Below, piece after piece: positions 3,239 through 35,391 of a DNA stretch of 64,000 nucleotides; position 1 is the first letter of the stretch, and each line of letters opens with the position of its first letter. The notes under the pieces were generated by a model. The model was given only the letters and a program-made list of their open reading frames with translations, did no database searches and was not told the DNA's origin. Origin of the DNA: Escherichia phage PECP14. The translations under genes were made by a program, and so were the position numbers. Location: sequence record OQ870555.1, one strand, 5' to 3'.

Positions 3239-4013
3239 TATTATTTTTCTCCAATAGTTCTTTAATCGACAGGATTTCTATCCCATTCGTTTCGGCTTTC
3301 TTATAAGATGAGGAAGAACGTTTTGATTCATCCTCACAGATTAGGTATTTGACGTCTTTGGTAACGGACTTCTTAACCGTATATCCTAGACTTTCTAAAT
3401 AGTTTGTTGCATCCGTTCGATTTGCAAAATCTTGCAAAGATCCGGTAATACAGACCGTGATTCCATTTGGCTGGGTAACTAAATCATCTGTAATGATGAT
3501 ATCCGCTTTAGCACCTCGAATACCTGTTGAGAATTTCCACGGTAATTCAATAACATCCTTGCCTTGTGGGGAATTTAGCCAGGTTTTGTAATTTTCTCCA
3601 GCCTTGCCGTCAGCCTTCACATCGTGGAAGCTAGTGCAATTTTGGGACAGTTTCTTTGCTGCAACCTCTCCAATAAGAGGAATTCCTAAAGAACCGAGAA
3701 CTGAACCAAAGTCAGTGTCTCCGCGAACCTTAGTATTTAACTCGCTAATCAATTTAGCGGCAACCTTGCTACCCACAGCTCCGACCAAATCTTCTTCGGT
3801 CAGGTAAAACAGTTCTGAGATCTTAGTCAGCTCCAGCTTCTCAATAGTTTTCGGGCCAAAGCCCTTTAACTTCATTTTTGTGCAGAAGTTCTCGATTAAC
3901 TTACTTGATTGCGCTGGACAGTTGGACTTATTCCTACAGAATAATTGCCCGTTGACAAGATCTAGCTTAGAACCACAAGAGGGACATTGTGTTGGAATTT
4001 CGATTTTCATCAA
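3231..4013 (-). CDS. NAD-dependent DNA ligase, C-terminal fragment (Zn-finger/HhH/BRCT)
   Basis: CPSCGSKL..C..C zinc finger, HhH-like GIPLIGEVAAKKL, BRCT-like tail. Confidence 0.7.
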   Translation of the reverse strand: MMKIEIPTQCPSCGSKLDLVNGQLFCRNKSNCPAQSSKLIENFCTKMKLKGFGPKTIEKLELTKISELFYLTEEDLVGAVGSKVAAKLISELNTKVRGDTDFGSVLGSLGIPLIGEVAAKKLSQNCTSFHDVKADGKAGENYKTWLNSPQGKDVIELPWKFSTGIRGAKADIIITDDLVTQPNGITVCITGSLQDFANRTDATNYLESLGYTVKKSVTKDVKYLICEDESKRSSSSYKKAETNGIEILSIKELLEKNNNV

Positions 4014-4040
4014 ATTTCTTCCTTATCAATTTATATAAAT

Positions 4041-4069
4041 ATTATAACAAGTATTTAAGCATTTAGCAA
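4041..4069 (-). promoter_or_regulatory. leftward early promoter inside the ligase gap
   Basis: minus strand TTGCTA-17-TATAAT + TATAAATTGATAAGGAAG directly upstream of the ligase C-terminal ORF. Confidence 0.5.
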
Positions 4070-4212
4070 CTACAATTTTAACTAACTTTGCTTACCCTCG
4101 CCATAACTTTCTATCCCTCAACTGAATGATAATAGTATATACCTAAGCGGCGAAAATGTCAATAACCACTTTATAATTCCGACATGGTAAACGGGTAGCA
4201 AAGGGTTACGAA

Positions 4213-5184
4213 TTAGTCGTATACTCGCTCTACTATACAAGGGATTACACCACCAGCACGAATCACTCGAATCTGGCAACCGATCTCTAAATCGAGAGCG
4301 TTAATATAATCAACGTTATTAAGAGTTGCTTTAACGATTGTGGCATCATCAATAATCACCGGCTCGAAATAACCAACTGGAGTTACTTTACCAGAAGCCC
4401 CTACTTGCCATTCAACTTTAACAAGTGTGGTAATTTCGCCTTCTTCATCCTCTTTAATAGCAAATGCGCCACGAGGAAATTTATTAGTCCAACCTTCACG
4501 GAAGAATTTGTTGTTATCATTAATACGAACAACTTTACCATCTGTCGGAATCCATTTAAAGAAGGAACGAACATTAACAACTGTCAAGAAGTTCTCATTC
4601 TCTAGCCAAAGCATATCTTTTAAATAGGCTTCTGTAATACCGACTGTTTCCGCTGAACACTGGATACCATATGCAACGAAGATTAAACCACCTTCACCAA
4701 TACGTTGGATGAAATCATCGCTGTCTTTCAGGTTAATAGCACCTGAAGCGTAGTTACGTTTGTTCTCTACTTCTTTAGTAATGAGAACTTCACCAGTGAT
4801 TTGAGTTGGAACTTTTTGGGAAATAGTTTTAGGGATGTTCAGCATTTTAACATTATGCGTTACATCATTCCCTAGAATACCGTTACCACGAGTTAACGCT
4901 TGAACAAATTCACCATTAATATATAATAGAGAAATCGCACAACCATCTAACTTATCAGTTTCAACCTGACCTAATGGATTGAATGGAGCTTTATCACCGC
5001 GACCGTAATAGACTTTCTGCAAAGAATACATACGATACAAATGAGGAATATCACCTTTCGGTCCGATTTCTTCCTCCAGTGGGAATCTTTTAATCAGACG
5101 ATCATATTCTTCATCGGAAATAAGACTCATTCCCTGGTAGTACGCTTCTTGACAACGTTTGATAAAGTCTTTTACATTATTCAT
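4213..5184 (-). CDS. NAD-dependent DNA ligase, N-terminal adenylation fragment
   Basis: KLDGCAIS (KxDG adenylation motif), OB-fold region; separate ORF upstream of the C-terminal fragment. Confidence 0.7.
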   Translation of the reverse strand: MNNVKDFIKRCQEAYYQGMSLISDEEYDRLIKRFPLEEEIGPKGDIPHLYRMYSLQKVYYGRGDKAPFNPLGQVETDKLDGCAISLLYINGEFVQALTRGNGILGNDVTHNVKMLNIPKTISQKVPTQITGEVLITKEVENKRNYASGAINLKDSDDFIQRIGEGGLIFVAYGIQCSAETVGITEAYLKDMLWLENENFLTVVNVRSFFKWIPTDGKVVRINDNNKFFREGWTNKFPRGAFAIKEDEEGEITTLVKVEWQVGASGKVTPVGYFEPVIIDDATIVKATLNNVDYINALDLEIGCQIRVIRAGGVIPCIVERVYD

Positions 5185-31662: not shown

Positions 31663-31698
31663 AAGCCCGCGTTTCCTTCGAGAGCGCGGGCTTTTCTG
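31663..31698 (+). terminator. intrinsic terminator after SPFH gene
   Basis: AGCCCGCG...CGCGGGCT stem + TTTTCTG. Confidence 0.6.
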
Positions 31699-31714
31699 TA
31701 TTTAAGGCAAAAGA

Positions 31715-31754
31715 AAAAGCCCCTTACCTTTCGGCAGGGGCTTTTGTTTTTTGG
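31715..31754 (+). terminator. second, possibly bidirectional terminator
   Basis: AAAAAGCCCCT...AGGGGCTTTTGTTTTTT at the convergence point of plus and minus genes. Confidence 0.6.
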
Positions 31755-31959
31755 TTTAGAACCATACTCTCTTGTTACAACAACCACTCATACGGGAGAC
31801 CAATCTTGACTGAAAATCTACTCTAGGGGGCAGGATAAGAGTAGGCTTAAAGGCAAACGGATTGAACACCGGTATTTGTGTAAACATTGCTGGAGAGCAA
31901 CAACGTGCTACAGGTATTGGGCAGCACGAAACAGATTTTCTGCAACACATAATTCCTCC

Positions 31960-32376
31960 TTAGGAGTTATTACCGCCATTTTGAGCTTTTGCAACTTGGC
32001 TTTGGCAGAAGCTATTAAACTTACCCATAAGTGCTACAAGCTGTTTCCCATCCTCTGTCTTTGCGAAGTCTTCGAAAAGGGCTAGTACTGCCTGTCCTTC
32101 CGCAGAAACCTGCGGTTGTTGGGTTTGTTGCTGAACTTGCTGCTGAGGCACCTGTTGCTGCATTTGTTGAGGCATTTGCGACTGCCCGCTCATTTGCTGC
32201 ATCATTTGCATAGGACTCACACTTCCAGGGTTTTGCTGGAGTTGCTGCTGCATCTGTTGCGCTTCTGCTAAACGCTGTTGCAACTGTTGTAGGTAAGGGT
32301 TATCCAGACCCGGAATGGGCTGCTGAGAGCCCATTGGTTGATTAAATCCGTTGTTCACAAAACCATATTTACTCAT
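31960..32376 (-). CDS. glutamine-rich low-complexity protein
   Basis: over 30% Gln with poly-Q(M/P) tracts; convergent with neighbouring plus-strand genes. Confidence 0.45.
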   Translation of the reverse strand: MSKYGFVNNGFNQPMGSQQPIPGLDNPYLQQLQQRLAEAQQMQQQLQQNPGSVSPMQMMQQMSGQSQMPQQMQQQVPQQQVQQQTQQPQVSAEGQAVLALFEDFAKTEDGKQLVALMGKFNSFCQSQVAKAQNGGNNS

Positions 32377-32398
32377 AATGGGCTCCTCCCCTTAAAGA

Positions 32399-33400
32399 TT
32401 AGGCTGGTACTTTAGCCTGTAGAGCTGCTAGAGTCTGAGTAATTGCACCCAGGCTTACAGCGATTTGATTGATTACCTGACCGTTTGCACCGCTACCTGC
32501 AGCGATTGCTTCACGCAGACGGCATTCATTCAGTTCGTCTTGGATACGCGCAGTAGTTACACCAGCAATCGCAGTCTGAAGTTCGCAGCAGCACTCAGCA
32601 AGCTGACGTTCGATAGCGTTCTGGTTAGCACACATCTGAGCCTGAACAGCGGCAAACTGGTTGTTAGTCTGAAGAGACTGCTGGAAAGCAATCTGGGCAG
32701 AGTCAAACTTGTCTTGTGCACGAGCGATCTGGTTAGCAGCGAAAGCTTGATCCATCTGGCGAGAAAGATCGAACTGACCCTGAATAACGTTACGAGTTTC
32801 CTGACAGATCTGGTTGGACAGGTTAGCACCAGTACCATACACAGTAGTCAGAATCTGTTGAGTGCTAGAAGCTTGAGCAGCACCTACACCATTAACAGCG
32901 CTCAGAACAGCACCAGTACCTTGATTCGCTTCGGTACGAGCAGTGTTGATTGCAGCTAGAATACTTGCAGTATCCTGGTTAGATAGGATAGCATCCACAG
33001 CAGTTCCCTCAGCGGCAACACCAGCACCACGTCCGAAACCACCGAAACCACCGAATCCGCCTGTTAATAGAGCACCAATCAGGATAGCTCCGAATAGACC
33101 CATACCTTCACCGCCGAAAGCACCATTTGCTACTGCTGGGTAACCACCCATCAGACCTGGGAAGCCGCTAGTGAATACGTTTACTGGTTCTTGCATTTTA
33201 TGTTTCCTATGTTTATGACAGCCCTCATGGTCGTCATCTTCATCATCTTCATCGTCATCATCGTGATCACGATGTTTCTTTTCGTAGGCCTTGACCTTCT
33301 CCCACTTATGTTTGTCTGATTCCTCATGACGTCTCAGTTCTGCTGCGACTTCACTGACGGTCTCAGGTTTCTTAGTTGCTTCTTCTGTCATTTTTGACAC
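32399..33400 (-). CDS. hypothetical protein: acidic/His-rich N-term, Gly-zipper segment, Ala/Gln-rich domain
   Basis: DDDDEDDEDDDHEGCHKHRKHK then GGFGGFGGFGRG; TTGACA-type promoter and AGGAGGTG SD upstream. Confidence 0.5.
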   Translation of the reverse strand: MSKMTEEATKKPETVSEVAAELRRHEESDKHKWEKVKAYEKKHRDHDDDDEDDEDDDHEGCHKHRKHKMQEPVNVFTSGFPGLMGGYPAVANGAFGGEGMGLFGAILIGALLTGGFGGFGGFGRGAGVAAEGTAVDAILSNQDTASILAAINTARTEANQGTGAVLSAVNGVGAAQASSTQQILTTVYGTGANLSNQICQETRNVIQGQFDLSRQMDQAFAANQIARAQDKFDSAQIAFQQSLQTNNQFAAVQAQMCANQNAIERQLAECCCELQTAIAGVTTARIQDELNECRLREAIAAGSGANGQVINQIAVSLGAITQTLAALQAKVPA

Positions 33401-33459
33401 CTCCTAGTATATAGAAAATGTGTGTCTCTTTGATCACTCATCTATAACATATACTTTAC

Positions 33460-33500
33460 ACTACCCCAGCGAAAATGTCAAGGGGTCTTTAAAAATTGCC
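33460..33500 (-). promoter_or_regulatory. leftward sigma70-like promoter for the convergent module
   Basis: minus strand CCTTGACATTTT...TAAAGT, then TAGGAGGTG SD before 33400 ATG; coordinates approximate. Confidence 0.4.
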
Positions 33501-33597: not shown

Positions 33598-33626
33598 TTG
33601 CTTGAATGCTAAATTCTCTGTATAAT
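33598..33626 (+). promoter_or_regulatory. early promoter cassette
   Basis: TTGCTT-17-TATAAT + TTATAAATTTGAGAGAGGAA. Confidence 0.55.
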
Positions 33627-33656
33627 ATATTTATAAATTTGAGAGAGGAATCAAAT

Positions 33657-34712
33657 ATGATTAAGACTGGTCTAGTAATTGGTAAGTTCGCACCATTAAC
33701 GCGTGGTCATATTAACCTAATAAACACAGCAGCAACTATGTGTGAACGAGTTATTGTTGTAGTTAGTCATGATAATCGTTGGCTGGATAAGCAGAACACA
33801 CGTGATCAGGAAGTATTACAGTTAAAGAATCGACTTCGTTGGTTAGAACAAACTTACGCGGATATTGAGCACGTTTCGGTAGAGTACATTATTGAAGATG
33901 ATATTCCTGAATATCCGAATGGTTGGCCGGAATATGCTAGAATCCTTAATGAAAATTATGGACATTTGCCTGAGATCACCATTTTCTCTAGCGAACTAGA
34001 CTATGATGCAGAATATAAGAAATATCTGCCGAAGTTTGGTCATTATATTGTAGATTCTGATCGGACTCGTGTTCCAATCTCAGCTACAATGATTCGTAAT
34101 GATCTTATGAAGTATTGGGAGTTTCTTCCTAGCGTAGTTCGTAAAGATTACGTGCGTAAGGTTGTAATCATTGGGACTGAAAGCTCAGGCAAAACAACTT
34201 TAACAAAGTACCTTGCGAAATTATATAATACTTCGTGGGTAGAAGAATATGGTCGTACTTACTGCGAAGTTGATCTAGTTGGTAATGAAGAACTCCTGAC
34301 TAGCGAGGACTATAATAAAATTGCATTCAGGCACAAAGAGCTAGAGTTTGAGGCAGAACGTACTGCAAATAAGATCATGTTTGTAGACACAAATGCTTTC
34401 ATTACAGAGTTTTATCACAGACTTTACGAGCATCGTAAAAATCCGGTTGTAACAGCTATTGCTAAAGAAGAGCATTATGATTTAGTTATAGTTTTAGCAC
34501 CTACTGTTAAGTGGGTAGATGATGGTTTACGTATTAACTCCGATCGTTCAATTACTTCTGAACTGTTCGAGCAGATGAAGAAAGAATTTCCTAATCAGTT
34601 TCCAGAAGGGCGTACTGTATATATTGACTCCCCGGACTATAAGGTTCGTATGGACGAAGCAGTAAACGCAGTAGACTGGCTGATTCATCACTTTAACGTT
34701 GGAGAGTTTTAA
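33657..34712 (+). CDS. NadR-like NMN adenylyltransferase / ribosylnicotinamide kinase
   Basis: GKFAPLTRGH (HxGH nucleotidyltransferase) and GTESSGKTTL (Walker A kinase). Confidence 0.65.
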   Translation: MIKTGLVIGKFAPLTRGHINLINTAATMCERVIVVVSHDNRWLDKQNTRDQEVLQLKNRLRWLEQTYADIEHVSVEYIIEDDIPEYPNGWPEYARILNENYGHLPEITIFSSELDYDAEYKKYLPKFGHYIVDSDRTRVPISATMIRNDLMKYWEFLPSVVRKDYVRKVVIIGTESSGKTTLTKYLAKLYNTSWVEEYGRTYCEVDLVGNEELLTSEDYNKIAFRHKELEFEAERTANKIMFVDTNAFITEFYHRLYEHRKNPVVTAIAKEEHYDLVIVLAPTVKWVDDGLRINSDRSITSELFEQMKKEFPNQFPEGRTVYIDSPDYKVRMDEAVNAVDWLIHHFNVGEF

Positions 34713-34713
34713 T

Positions 34714-35391
34714 ATGACTAACTATCTTGTAAATGACTTTAAAAACTGGAAACCTTTGGAATATCTGTGGCTGTTTATAGCAGTCGCCTTTATTAGTTTA
34801 GCTAACTATAATGGTACAGCTCTAGATTGGGCTACTGCAATAACCAACGTGGTTTGTGTTATTCTGGTTGCAAAAGGACGTGTTTCCAACTATATTTGGG
34901 GCTTAGTTGGTGTTCTTACCTATGGTATTACAGCTTTAAACGCAGATCTTTATGGTAACGCTGCACTAAACCTGCTATACTACGTTCCTATGCAGTTTTA
35001 TGGAATGTACTTATGGCATAAAAATAAGCCAAGTAATCTGCCAGATGTTCCAACTAAGGTTCTGACTAAAGCCCAAGCTCTGCTGACTCTAGGGATTCTA
35101 GCAGTAGCCACGTTAGGGTATGGTAGTTTCTTAGCTACTACGGCTGATCCATTCCCAATGTTGGATGCATTTACTGCGGTAGGTAGTGTGATCGCTATGT
35201 GGCTTATGGTTAAGCAGTATGCCGAGCAGTGGCTGATCTGGATTGCTATTAACATTGGTACTGTATATATTTGGCTTGTAACTGCCCAGTCTACGGGTGC
35301 TTCTTATGCAATCCTAGCAATGTGGCTGGTGTTCTTAGGTAACTCTATTATGGGAGCCTATAAAGGCTACTTTGTAAGAGTTAACAAATAA
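34714..35391 (+). CDS. pnuC: PnuC-like nicotinamide riboside transporter
   Basis: polytopic membrane protein with PnuC-like W/Y-rich helices; directly follows NadR-like gene. Confidence 0.6.
   Translation: MTNYLVNDFKNWKPLEYLWLFIAVAFISLANYNGTALDWATAITNVVCVILVAKGRVSNYIWGLVGVLTYGITALNADLYGNAALNLLYYVPMQFYGMYLWHKNKPSNLPDVPTKVLTKAQALLTLGILAVATLGYGSFLATTADPFPMLDAFTAVGSVIAMWLMVKQYAEQWLIWIAINIGTVYIWLVTAQSTGASYAILAMWLVFLGNSIMGAYKGYFVRVNK

What the first reader, a model, noticed from the sequence alone, without database searches (positions are those of the whole stretch)
31960..33400. Convergently transcribed two-gene module with extreme low-complexity proteins
Two minus-strand genes are embedded in otherwise plus-strand DNA, with their own TTGACA-type promoter and a strong AGGAGGTG SD. 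The upstream product has a poly-Asp/Glu/His N-terminus, a GGFGGFGGFG glycine-zipper segment and a long Ala/Gln-rich domain with a CCC triplet. The downstream product is over 30% glutamine. Their GC-rich, E. coli-optimal codon usage differs from most neighbours, and they face the SPFH-domain gene across a double terminator. No function can be assigned by eye.
Basis: seen in the sequence. Interest (0 to 1): 0.65.

Follow-up and report, generated by a model that had tools for sequence, protein, structure and literature searches.

The report
Mobile three-gene phage membrane cassette
The flagged stretch of this T5-like phage genome is a real, self-contained set of three (not two) genes that also turns up in several unrelated phages, is not needed for growth in the laboratory, probably makes a membrane-anchored helical protein complex, and resembles nothing whose function is known.

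Summary
The window is a T5-like phage, 99.6% identical to Salmonella phage Sepoy. The minus-strand island is real, but it holds three genes.

- **A** (32399-33391, 330 aa) has an acidic/His tract, a Gly-rich hydrophobic helix, an all-helical Ala/Gln domain and an invariant CCC.
- **B** (31960-32376, 138 aa) is 27.5% Gln.
- **C** (31756-31950, 64 aa) is an overlooked Cys/Pro-rich 'MCC...' peptide.

The island has its own TTGACA-17-TAAAGT promoter, a strong ribosome-binding site on each gene, and its own terminator.

The same A-B-C trio, always antisense to its neighbours, occurs in distant T5-likes, an E. coli N4-like phage, a lambdoid contig and Pseudomonas phage KPP23. It is missing from the viable T5st0 deletion mutant and from phage Shivani.

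A and B are under purifying selection (dN/dS 0.16 and 0.14). C gives 0.36.

No match was found in Pfam, NCBIfam, PADLOC or PDB, and no paper mentions these genes. GenBank's 'cAMP-dependent protein kinase' label for B has no support.

Charge patterns in 133 homologues predict that the helical CCC domain lies in the cytoplasm.

Best reading: a horizontally mobile accessory (moron-type) operon making an inner-membrane-anchored complex. It is probably used in phage-phage or phage-host conflict. That function is inferred, not shown.

The parts
33453..33481 (-). Sigma-70 promoter: -35 TTGACA (33481-33476), 17-nt spacer, -10 TAAAGT (33458-33453). It is followed by ATATG, which matches 4 of 5 bases of the ATATT discriminator motif of T5 early promoters.
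   Evidence: 10 of 12 consensus matches. (invariant in 7 T5-like loci, with an A/T-rich block upstream). T5 records annotate a promoter here, as P12 / T5P21. The discriminator motif is from PMC7472727.
33398..33405 (-). Shine-Dalgarno AGGAGGTG of gene A, 8 nt upstream of ATG 33391.
32399..33391 (-). Gene A (T5.077 homologue, PHROG 8119), 330 aa. It has an N-terminal amphipathic helix, an acidic/His tract, a Gly-rich hydrophobic helix and an all-helical Ala/Gln/Asn-rich domain of about 200 aa.
   Evidence: AF2 gave helix 15-44 at pLDDT 82-94 and residues 134-330 helical at pLDDT 50-70. dN/dS is 0.16.
33197..33274 (-). Asp/Glu/His-rich tract of A (residues 43-68 in the 333-aa numbering).
   Evidence: The tract is expanded to poly-His in some T5-likes and is absent from the N4-like and distant clades.
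33032..33106 (-). Uncharged hydrophobic Gly-rich segment of A (residues 99-123, GMGLFGAILIGALLTGGFGGFGGFG). Small residues recur every fourth position. This is the putative membrane anchor.
   Evidence: The best 13-residue window has a Kyte-Doolittle mean of 2.41. In 133 homologues the first flanking charge on the N side is always D/E, and on the C side it is R/K in 80 of 133.
32585..32593 (-). Invariant CCC triplet of A (residues 270-272).
   Evidence: Invariant in alignment A3. At least 90% conserved in the 56-sequence alignment. Present in 123 of 133 homologues.
32402..32491 (-). Most conserved part of A: the C-terminal heptad-repeat helix NGQVINQIAVSLGAITQTLAALQAKV.
   Evidence: a run of invariant columns. 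(best a/d heptad score in the protein).
31960..32376 (-). Gene B (T5.078 homologue, PHROG 7894), 138 aa. It has a conserved helix (27-48), a variable Q/P/M-rich linker (49-91) and a conserved 40-aa C-terminal helical hairpin (92-133). It is mislabelled 'cAMP-dependent protein kinase catalytic subunit' in GenBank.
   Evidence: In AF2 the hairpin has pLDDT 83-90 and the linker is below 50. dN/dS is 0.14. There is no Pkinase hit.
31756..31950 (-). Gene C (T5.079 homologue), a 64-aa Cys/Pro-rich peptide: MCC...CCPIPVARCC...CC. Its SD AAGGAGGA (31955-31962) overlaps B's stop codon.
   Evidence: The ORF is intact at 64 aa in 20 of 20 T5-like loci, and all 8 Cys are invariant. Positional counterparts exist in KPP23, N4-like, lambdoid and distant T5-like loci. 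One shares the CCP[IM]PV[AP]RCC motif.
31711..31745 (-). Intrinsic terminator of the cassette: 10-bp stem AAAAGCCCCT/AGGGGCTTTT followed by a T-run.
   Evidence: -20.6 kcal/mol, z = -3.5. It is annotated as a terminator in Sepoy and as 'efficient bidirectional terminator' in T5.
31663..31703 (+). Terminator of the convergent SPFH gene. It belongs to the neighbour, not the cassette. It contains AGCGC (31683-31687), which matches the T5 nick consensus.

Best explanation
This is an autonomous, horizontally mobile accessory ('moron'-type) operon of three genes.

Shown:
- It carries its own strong sigma-70 promoter, a strong ribosome-binding site on each gene, and its own terminator.
- It is inserted antisense to the surrounding operons.
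- It occurs as the same A-B-C trio in unrelated phage backbones.
- It is dispensable for lytic growth.
- It has no detectable relative of known function.

Inferred:
- A is anchored in the inner membrane by its Gly-rich small-xxx-small helix. It self-associates through that helix and through its amphipathic, heptad-containing C-terminal domain.
- Flanking charges place the C-terminal CCC-bearing helical domain in the cytoplasm (N-out/C-in). This fits B and C, which have no signal peptides, and the many cysteines in the domain.
- B docks on A through its two conserved helical modules, which are joined by a flexible Q/P/M-rich spacer.
- The Cys-pair peptide C binds at or near the invariant CCC through thiol contacts, either metal-bridged or disulfide.

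Most speculative: the complex is made early and abundantly and works in conflict at the cell envelope. The most likely role is excluding or disadvantaging other phages (superinfection exclusion) or neutralising a membrane-based host response. It does not appear to serve replication, morphogenesis or lysis.
For: Autonomy:
- Promoter, SDs and terminator are present.
- T5 curators annotated a promoter and a bidirectional terminator at the same places.
- The discriminator ATATG resembles the early-class ATATT motif (PMC7472727).

Mobility (same gene order, antisense island):
- Window and 19 T5-likes.
- Distant T5-like contigs L029 and L030.
- E. coli N4-like contig L009, next to the virion RNA polymerase gene.
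- Lambdoid contig L031, between the Q antiterminator and holin/lysozyme/Rz.
- Pseudomonas siphophage KPP23.

Dispensability and patchy distribution:
- Absent from T5st0 and Shivani.
- A is in 222 phage records, against 565 records with the neighbouring SPFH gene at 80% identity or more.
- No relative in 185,579 species-representative genomes or in 5,426 E. coli genomes.

Real genes: dN/dS is 0.16, 0.14 and 0.36.

Membrane anchor and topology:
- Kyte-Doolittle mean of 2.41.
- D/E on the N side in 133 of 133 homologues, and R/K on the C side in 80 of 133.
- Gut-phage homologues have N-tails of about 30 aa with no K/R.

Helical domain.

B architecture.

Context of remote homologues: they sit between the integrase and an ImmA/IrrE-like peptidase, which is the usual place for lysogenic-conversion and exclusion genes. 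They are flanked by Q/M-rich small proteins.
Against: - No functional evidence of any kind exists. No exclusion, toxicity, localisation or expression data were found.
- The AF2 model of A is poor: mean pLDDT 57 and pTM 0.22.
- The hydrophobic core is short (13-16 uncharged residues) in three homologues (P0003, P0004, P0005), so a monotopic or non-membrane role is possible.
- In the T5-like clade the N-tail is about 98 aa with 16 K/R. This makes N-out translocation doubtful there.
- PADLOC gives no hit, so nothing links the cassette to known defence systems.
- The link between C and the CCC motif is a guess from composition.
- Evidence for selection on C is weak, because there are few substitutions (dS 0.06).
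Confidence: 0.4

Rival explanations
1. Host-takeover tether. A is a type-Ib (N-out/C-in) membrane anchor. Through B's P/Q-rich spacer and C-terminal hairpin it captures a cytoplasmic host machine, for example the division or elongation cytoskeleton, in the manner of ZipA or EzrA. This would block division or position phage processes at the membrane.
For: - The predicted topology puts a large cytoplasmic helical domain on a membrane anchor.
- B has a flexible Q/P/M-rich linker between conserved modules.
- The promoter is early-type.
- From my own knowledge, ZipA is a type-Ib protein with a P/Q linker, and many phages encode early division inhibitors.
Against: - No sequence or profile similarity to ZipA, EzrA or known phage division inhibitors.
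- The resemblance is in composition and architecture only.
- The cassette also sits in a lambdoid phage antisense to the late operon, a position more typical of lysogen-expressed morons.
Confidence: 0.15
2. Thiol- or metal-handling module. The His/Asp tract, the invariant CCC and the Cys-pair peptide C bind or buffer a metal (Zn, Cu or Ni), or form a redox-sensitive assembly.
For: - CCC is nearly invariant in 123 of 133 homologues.
- All 8 Cys of C are invariant among T5-likes.
- His-rich tracts are expanded in some T5-likes.
- There is a weak, sub-threshold similarity to the His-rich loop of ZIP transporters (E = 0.036).
Against: - The His tract is confined to one sub-clade.
- C is 12.5% Cys, which from memory is well below metallothioneins.
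- No metal-binding family is matched.
- There is no obvious benefit to such different phages.
Confidence: 0.1
3. Cytoplasmic self-assembling scaffold or condensate. The GGFGG repeats of A and the Gln-rich B act as low-complexity 'sticky' regions that form a filament, lattice or droplet. C cross-links it, and there is no true membrane span.
For: - Extreme composition: B is 27.5% Gln, and A is 15% Ala and 10% Gly.
- The hydrophobic core is short in some homologues.
- A has a long helical domain like intermediate-filament rods.
- None of the three proteins has a signal peptide.
Against: - The hydrophobic segment is conserved as hydrophobic across the whole family. Its asymmetric flanking charge (acidic on one side, basic on the other) is typical of membrane insertion.
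- B's low-complexity part varies in length and sequence while its ends are conserved. That is how a spacer behaves, not an interaction domain.
Confidence: 0.1
4. Lysis accessory, or a spanin-like or fusogenic system. A would be an Rz-like membrane-anchored helical protein with cysteines and C a small Pro/Cys-rich partner, acting on the envelope at lysis.
For: - There is a superficial architectural likeness: a membrane helix plus a helical Cys-containing domain, with a small Pro/Cys-rich partner.
- The cassette lies beside the lysis genes in L031, and a remote homologue lies near an NlpC/P60 endolysin in L034.
- From memory, the hydrophobic segment contains GLFGAI, identical to the start of the influenza HA2 fusion peptide.
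Against: - C has no signal peptide or lipobox.
- Flanking charges predict the opposite topology to an i-spanin.
- L031 carries a bona fide Rz (PF03245) as well.
- Shivani is reported to have spanins (PMC4342426) but lacks the cassette.
- T5st0 lacks it and is viable.
- In L031 it is antisense to the late operon.
Confidence: 0.04
5. The database annotation is right, meaning B is a cAMP-dependent protein kinase catalytic subunit. Alternatively, the ORFs are not translated genes at all.
For: GenBank labels in T5 AY587007 ('kapc'), Sepoy and several other records.
Against: - No kinase domain is found in Pfam or NCBIfam, even at E = 1.
- B has 138 aa, which from memory is too short for a kinase domain.
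- The label is most simply explained as a low-complexity poly-Gln database hit. That is my inference.
- Non-coding status is excluded by dN/dS of 0.14-0.16 and by conserved synteny across phage families.
Confidence: 0.01

Closest known systems
Phage morons (for example lambda bor and lom, HK97 gp15)
   Same: It is an independent transcription unit with its own promoter and terminator, inserted between, and here antisense to, essential operons. Its base composition differs from the flanks. Its distribution among close relatives is patchy, and it is dispensable for lytic growth.
   Different: It has three co-transcribed genes rather than one. It is found mainly in virulent phages (T5-like, N4-like, KPP23). 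It has no sequence similarity to any described moron product. Expression from a prophage has not been shown.
Superinfection-exclusion membrane proteins (T4 Imm/Sp, P22 SieA, HK97 gp15, T5 Llp)
   Same: It is a predicted inner-membrane protein made from an early-type, host-RNAP promoter. It is accessory and patchy. Remote homologues occupy the integrase/repressor-side slot where Sie genes of Gram-positive phages usually sit (the usual location is from my own knowledge).
   Different: There is no homology. No known Sie system has a roughly 200-aa helical cytoplasmic domain with a CCC motif, a Gln-rich partner and a Cys-pair peptide. No exclusion phenotype has been tested.
Two-component spanins (Rz/Rz1)
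   Same: It combines a membrane-anchored helical protein with conserved cysteines and a small Pro/Cys-rich partner encoded just downstream.
   Different: The predicted topology is the opposite. C has no lipoprotein signal. A third gene lies between the two. The cassette coexists with a true Rz and is absent from viable phages.
ZipA / EzrA-type bitopic tethers
   Same: The predicted orientation is N-out/C-in with the bulk of the protein in the cytoplasm. A flexible P/Q-rich spacer is present in the system, within B.
   Different: No sequence or profile similarity. The spacer is on a separate polypeptide. These are host proteins, not phage proteins.
Glycine-zipper membrane proteins (SlyB / 17-kDa antigen family)
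   Same: It has a Gly-rich small-xxx-small hydrophobic segment. The best PDB profile hit is SlyB, over this segment only.
   Different: The hit is not significant (E = 0.11). No Pfam glycine-zipper model is matched. From memory, SlyB is an outer-membrane lipoprotein without a helical domain.

Membership tests
Phage moron / accessory cassette | Own promoter and terminator, independent of the flanking operons | tested here: met
   The promoter matches 10 of 12 consensus positions and is invariant among T5-likes. The terminator hairpin folds at -20.6 kcal/mol. The cassette lies on the opposite strand to its neighbours in most of the contexts examined; in KPP23 the genes downstream of it run on the same strand.
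Phage moron / accessory cassette | Patchy presence among close relatives, and dispensability | tested here: met
   It is absent from T5st0 and Shivani. A is in 222 records, against 565 records carrying the neighbouring SPFH gene.
Phage moron / accessory cassette | Base composition distinct from the flanks | tested here: met
   GC is 0.47-0.50 across the cassette and 0.36-0.42 in the flanks. The excess is driven by amino-acid composition, because GC3 is not raised.
Superinfection-exclusion systems | Expression blocks infection by the same or other phages | not testable with these tools
   This needs plating assays. No literature was found.
Superinfection-exclusion systems | Membrane or envelope location of the effector | tested here: inconclusive
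   A hydrophobic segment with asymmetric flanking charges is conserved in 133 homologues. The core is short in some of them, and there are no experimental data.
Two-component spanin (Rz/Rz1) | i-spanin is type II (N-in/C-out) with a periplasmic helical domain | tested here: not met
   The N side is acidic and the C side basic across the family, which predicts C-in.
Two-component spanin (Rz/Rz1) | o-spanin is a lipoprotein with a signal peptide and lipobox Cys | tested here: not met
   C starts MCCRKS and has no hydrophobic signal sequence. The same holds for the C-like ORFs in four other backbones.
Two-component spanin (Rz/Rz1) | It is the phage's only spanin and is needed for lysis | tested here: not met
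   It coexists with Rz (PF03245) in L031. It is absent from viable T5st0 and from Shivani, which is reported to have spanins.
cAMP-dependent protein kinase catalytic subunit (GenBank label of B) | Protein kinase catalytic domain | tested here: not met
   No Pkinase hit in Pfam or NCBIfam at E up to 1. The protein is 138 aa and 27.5% Gln.
Glycine-zipper families (Pfam Gly-zipper_*, SlyB/Rick_17kDa) | Match to the family profile | tested here: not met
   No Pfam hit in any of 56 homologues. The SlyB hit has E = 0.11. Small-xxx-small spacing is visible in the sequence, but that is a motif, not family membership.
Coiled-coil proteins | Heptad a/d hydrophobic periodicity in a long helix | tested here: inconclusive
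   AF2 makes residues 134-330 helical, but at pLDDT 50-70. The a/d occupancy exceeds all 300 shuffles (2.80 against 1.68 +/- 0.27). Global 3.5-residue periodicity is weak (z = 0.9-2.2). The clear heptads are at the C-terminal 28 residues.
Known anti-phage defence systems (PADLOC) | Profile match to a defence-system component | tested here: not met
   A, B and C give no hit. One remote homologue gives a weak hit to the helical tail of ZorA (E = 0.0018), probably a composition effect.

The most novel reading that the evidence does not exclude
T5.077-079 and their counterparts would be a previously unrecognised three-component membrane system. It would consist of a type-Ib-anchored helical stalk with an invariant CCC, a Gln-rich adaptor, and an N-terminal Cys-cluster peptide. 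Unrelated virulent and temperate phages would exchange it as a unit, and it would perform a new kind of superinfection exclusion or counter-defence at the cytoplasmic face of the inner membrane, possibly through a thiol- or metal-linked assembly.
Probability: 0.3. Interest if true: 0.7.

Novelty: new variant of a known kind. Interest (0 to 1): 0.5.

Why it matters
T5 is a classical model phage, yet this strongly signalled operon has no literature and carries a misleading kinase label.

The same three genes travel together between T5-like, N4-like, lambdoid and Pseudomonas phages while being dispensable in the laboratory. That pattern is typical of genes used in phage-phage or phage-host conflict, such as exclusion or counter-defence.

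The proteins match nothing characterised. Working out the function could therefore reveal a new envelope-level mechanism.

It is easy to test. T5st0 is a natural deletion, the cassette is only 1.8 kb and has its own promoter, and phage and defence-system panels for E. coli already exist.

If the function turns out to be trivial, the result still corrects the annotation: three genes, the true start of A, the bogus kinase name, and the mis-framed KPP23 ORF072.

Tried and rejected
Searches that found no characterised relative:
- Pfam, PHROGs, NCBIfam and PADLOC scans of A, B and C. PHROGs returned only unknown-function families 8119 and 7894.
- A Pfam scan of 56 homologues.
- PDB sequence and profile searches.
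- An exhaustive phmmer search of A against 1.84 billion representatives. It gave 20 hits, all unnamed.
- Profile searches in the 5.8-billion-sequence set. They gave 222 hits, none with a Pfam domain.

Structure:
- AF2 of A was low-confidence, and Foldseek against PDB gave nothing.
- AF2 of B gave a confident C-terminal hairpin only. Foldseek against viral structures returned one strong match, an unnamed 143-aa protein that is probably the KPP23 homologue by length, and nothing informative.

Distribution:
- A species-genome scan and a search of E. coli complete genomes found no relatives.
- A search with C-like peptides returned only 3 proteins, because the ORF is rarely called.
- The viral-contig scan with the wide alignment failed for lack of conserved columns. 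The narrower alignment recovered only T5-likes.
- L031 has no match to known phage DNA.

Literature:
- Searches for T5.077, T5.078 and T5.079 and for the kinase label found nothing.
- The phiR2-01 proteomics paper was not informative without its tables.

Ideas rejected:
- Spanin: wrong topology, no lipobox, and it coexists with Rz.
- Virion protein: it sits in the early region, is antisense to the late operon in L031, and is absent from viable T5st0.
- Functional coupling to the SPFH neighbour: not conserved in other backbones.
- MCP-like, flagellin-like or R-body-like domains: no profile hits.
- A cleavable signal peptide in the short-tailed homologues: their N-regions have no positive charge.
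Full report
**Identity of the window.** The flagged region is 99.6% identical to Salmonella phage Sepoy (Epseptimavirus, Demerecviridae). It matches 311 phage records, almost all from T5-like Salmonella or Escherichia phages. In T5 (NC_005859) the homologous genes are T5.077, T5.078 and T5.079. They lie between 'promoter P12' and an 'efficient bidirectional rho-independent terminator', convergent with the SPFH/band-7 gene T5.080.

**Checking the observation.** They lie inside roughly 47 kb of plus-strand genes.
- The promoter TTGACA-17-TAAAGT (33481..33453, minus strand) scores 10 of 12. It is invariant, with its A/T-rich upstream block, in seven T5-like loci.
- The bases after the -10 (ATATG) resemble the ATATT discriminator that marks T5 early promoters (PMC7472727).
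- AGGAGGTG lies 8 nt upstream of ATG 33391. Most T5-likes carry one more A in the spacer, which puts GTG 33400 out of frame. ATG is therefore the true start, and A is 330 aa.
- The acidic/His tract, GGFGGFGGFG and CCC are all present.
- Two terminator hairpins stand back to back, each at about -20.5 kcal/mol, with z = -3.5 and -3.8.

Four points need correcting.
1. There is a third gene, C (31756-31950, 64 aa). Its AAGGAGGA ribosome-binding site overlaps B's stop codon. It is annotated in Sepoy and T5.
2. B is 27.5% Gln, not over 30%.
B scores 0.27 and C 0.21.
4. The raised GC (0.47-0.50 against 0.36-0.42) comes from Ala/Gly codons. A's GC3 is 0.37, like its neighbours.

**Are these real genes?** Among 20 T5-like loci, dN/dS by the Nei-Gojobori method is 0.16 for A, 0.14 for B and 0.36 for C. 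The SPFH control gives 0.07. C has few substitutions (dS 0.06). Even so, its ORF is exactly 64 aa in 20 of 20 loci and all eight cysteines are invariant.

**The trio is a mobile unit.** This is the key result. The same A-B-C order was found in five further contexts. In four of them it is an island antisense to the flanking genes.
- Two distant T5-like contigs, with A only 42-43% identical.
- An E. coli N4-like contig, next to the giant virion RNA polymerase gene.
- A lambdoid contig, between the Q antiterminator and holin/lysozyme/Rz and antisense to the late operon.
- Pseudomonas siphophage KPP23, where the genes downstream run on the same strand.

In KPP23 the third gene is annotated in the wrong frame. 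The correct frame gives MCCNQPVPQCC.... The lambdoid C-like protein shares the motif CCPMPVPRCC with the window's CCPIPVARCC. All C-like peptides start with MCC, MCGCGC or MSCNCGCG.

**The cassette is dispensable and patchy.**
- It is missing from the viable deletion mutant T5st0, whose deletion junction is annotated between tRNA-Asp and the SleB-like gene.
- It is missing, on its own, from phage Shivani.
- A is present in 222 phage records. The neighbouring SPFH gene is present at 80% identity or more in 565.
- No relative was found in 185,579 species-representative bacterial genomes or in 5,426 complete E. coli genomes.

**What the proteins look like.** A has five parts in order.
- A confidently predicted N-terminal helix, residues 15-44 at pLDDT 82-94. 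Its motif AAEL+xHExxD is conserved in the proteobacterial-phage clade.
- A charged tract. It is acidic in all clades but His-rich only in the T5-like sub-clade.
- EPVNVF followed by a Gly-rich hydrophobic segment.
- An all-helical domain of about 200 aa, at pLDDT 50-70.
- A strongly conserved C-terminus...QIAECCCE...TARIQDEL..RL......NGQVINQIAVSLGAITQTLAALQAKV.

Heptad a/d occupancy in the helical domain exceeds all 300 shuffles. It is clearest in the last 28 residues, and overall periodicity is only weakly coiled-coil-like.

B has a conserved helix (27-48), a Q/P/M-rich linker that varies in length by repeat indels, and a nearly invariant 40-aa helical hairpin at pLDDT 83-90.

**A wider family.** An exhaustive search of 1.84 billion representative proteins gave only 20 hits for A. 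A profile search gave 222, none with a Pfam domain or a name. Across 133 homologues:
- 123 keep the CCC.
- The first charged residue before the hydrophobic segment is always Asp or Glu (133 of 133).
- The first charged residue after it is Arg or Lys in 80 of 133.
- The gut-phage clade has N-tails of about 30 aa with no Lys or Arg at all.

By the positive-inside rule this predicts N-out/C-in, which puts the Cys-rich helical domain in the cytoplasm. That fits B and C having no signal peptides. It also fits the 9-16 cysteines in the gut-phage homologues; from my own knowledge, exported proteins of Gram-positive bacteria avoid Cys, and I take these phages' hosts to be Gram-positive from their SPP1-type genes.

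In the T5-like clade the N-tail is about 98 aa with 16 K/R, so the topology there is uncertain. From memory, the 100-residue N-tail of ProW is a precedent for translocating a tail this long.

The gut-phage homologues (PHROG 16490) sit between an integrase and an ImmA/IrrE-like peptidase. They are preceded by Q/M-rich small proteins.

**Comparison with known systems.** Nothing characterised matches. This holds for Pfam, NCBIfam, PADLOC, PDB sequences and profiles, and Foldseek. The best PDB profile hit is SlyB at E = 0.11, over the Gly-rich segment only. The GenBank name 'cAMP-dependent protein kinase catalytic subunit' for B has no support, because there is no kinase domain. I attribute it to a poly-Gln low-complexity hit.

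The spanin idea fails on four counts:
- C has no lipobox.
- The predicted topology is the opposite of an i-spanin.
- The lambdoid contig carries a genuine Rz as well.
- Shivani is reported to have T5-type spanins (PMC4342426) but lacks the cassette.

Coupling to the SPFH neighbour is not conserved in other backbones.

**Interpretation.** The behaviour is that of a moron. The unit is autonomous, has a distinct base composition, is antisense, patchy and dispensable, and moves as a unit between unrelated phages. Such units usually serve phage-phage or phage-host conflict.

My best-supported model has three parts:
- A forms an inner-membrane-anchored oligomeric helical stalk.
- B binds it through its two conserved modules.
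- The Cys-pair peptide C sits at the invariant CCC.

The complex would be made early and abundantly, and would most likely exclude other phages or counter a membrane-based host response. Only the genetic anatomy and distribution are shown. Anchoring, topology, complex formation and function are inferred. Overall confidence is 0.4.

The rivals are a ZipA/EzrA-like host-takeover tether (0.15), a thiol/metal module (0.1), a non-membrane low-complexity scaffold (0.1), a lysis accessory (0.04), and the kinase label or non-coding status (0.01).

**Verdict.** This is a real and somewhat unusual feature of a model phage. Its function is still unknown. Interest is moderate (0.5). It would rise if the cassette proves to be a new exclusion or counter-defence mechanism (probability about 0.3).

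Noticed in passing
window 31683-31687 (+), inside terminator hairpin 31663-31693; whole window: AGCGC, matching the T5 single-strand nick consensus Pu|GCGC, sits in the SPFH terminator hairpin. This is syntenic with T5's annotated 'major nick 3, 32.6%'. RGCGC is also about two-fold under-represented in the whole window: 55 sites against 107 +/- 12 expected.
   Followed up: partly
window 31756-33391 (-) and homologous loci L010-L028: Synonymous divergence among 20 T5-like phages falls steeply along the operon: A 0.31, B 0.15, C 0.06. The adjacent SPFH gene has 0.36. This suggests an extra nucleotide-level constraint or recent recombination at the 3' end. It remains unexplained.
   Followed up: no
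window 33391-33400 (-): There is a one-base length difference in the A-run between the SD and the ATG. In this window GTG 33400 is in frame with ATG 33391, while most T5-likes have an extra A. ORF callers therefore give 333 aa here, but the conserved start gives 330 aa.
   Followed up: yes
window about 33459-33487 (-): A 5-bp inverted repeat, ACCCC...GGGGT, brackets the -35 hexamer and spacer of the cassette promoter. It is invariant in seven T5-like loci and could be an operator.
   Followed up: no
L003 (T5 AY587007) 3678-4468; L016 (phage SE11): Gene A is split into two ORFs in the ATCC T5 record (ORF072/ORF073) and in phage SE11, but is intact in NC_005859 and 18 other loci. This is either a sequencing error or pseudogenisation of a dispensable gene.
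   Followed up: partly
L004 (Pseudomonas phage KPP23) 6969-7151 (+): KPP23 ORF072 is annotated in the wrong reading frame. The frame that is conserved with gene C gives a 60-aa MCC... Cys-rich peptide. The homologue in phage RSP is labelled 'alpha/beta hydrolase like protein', which is also unfounded.
   Followed up: yes
L009 6756-6911 (-); L031 5744-5917 (-): A small Zn-ribbon ORF (CPxCG...CPECG) lies divergently just upstream of gene A in both the N4-like and the lambdoid contexts, but not in the T5-like window. It could be a regulator of the cassette or a fourth component.
   Followed up: partly
window 33606-35391 (+): A NadR-like nicotinamide-nucleotide adenylyltransferase/kinase gene and a PnuC-like transporter gene (NAD salvage) lie upstream of the cassette. 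In T5 the upstream neighbour is the primase-like T5.076. The left boundary of the cassette is therefore a variable junction.
   Followed up: partly
L005 5176-8002 (+) and L032-L034: In gut phages the remote A homologue sits in a conserved block. It is preceded by two Q/M-rich proteins. It is followed by one or two Cys-containing proteins of about 140 aa that look beta-rich (PHROG 20016) and a Tyr/Met/Glu-rich 211-aa protein. All are of unknown function.
   Followed up: partly
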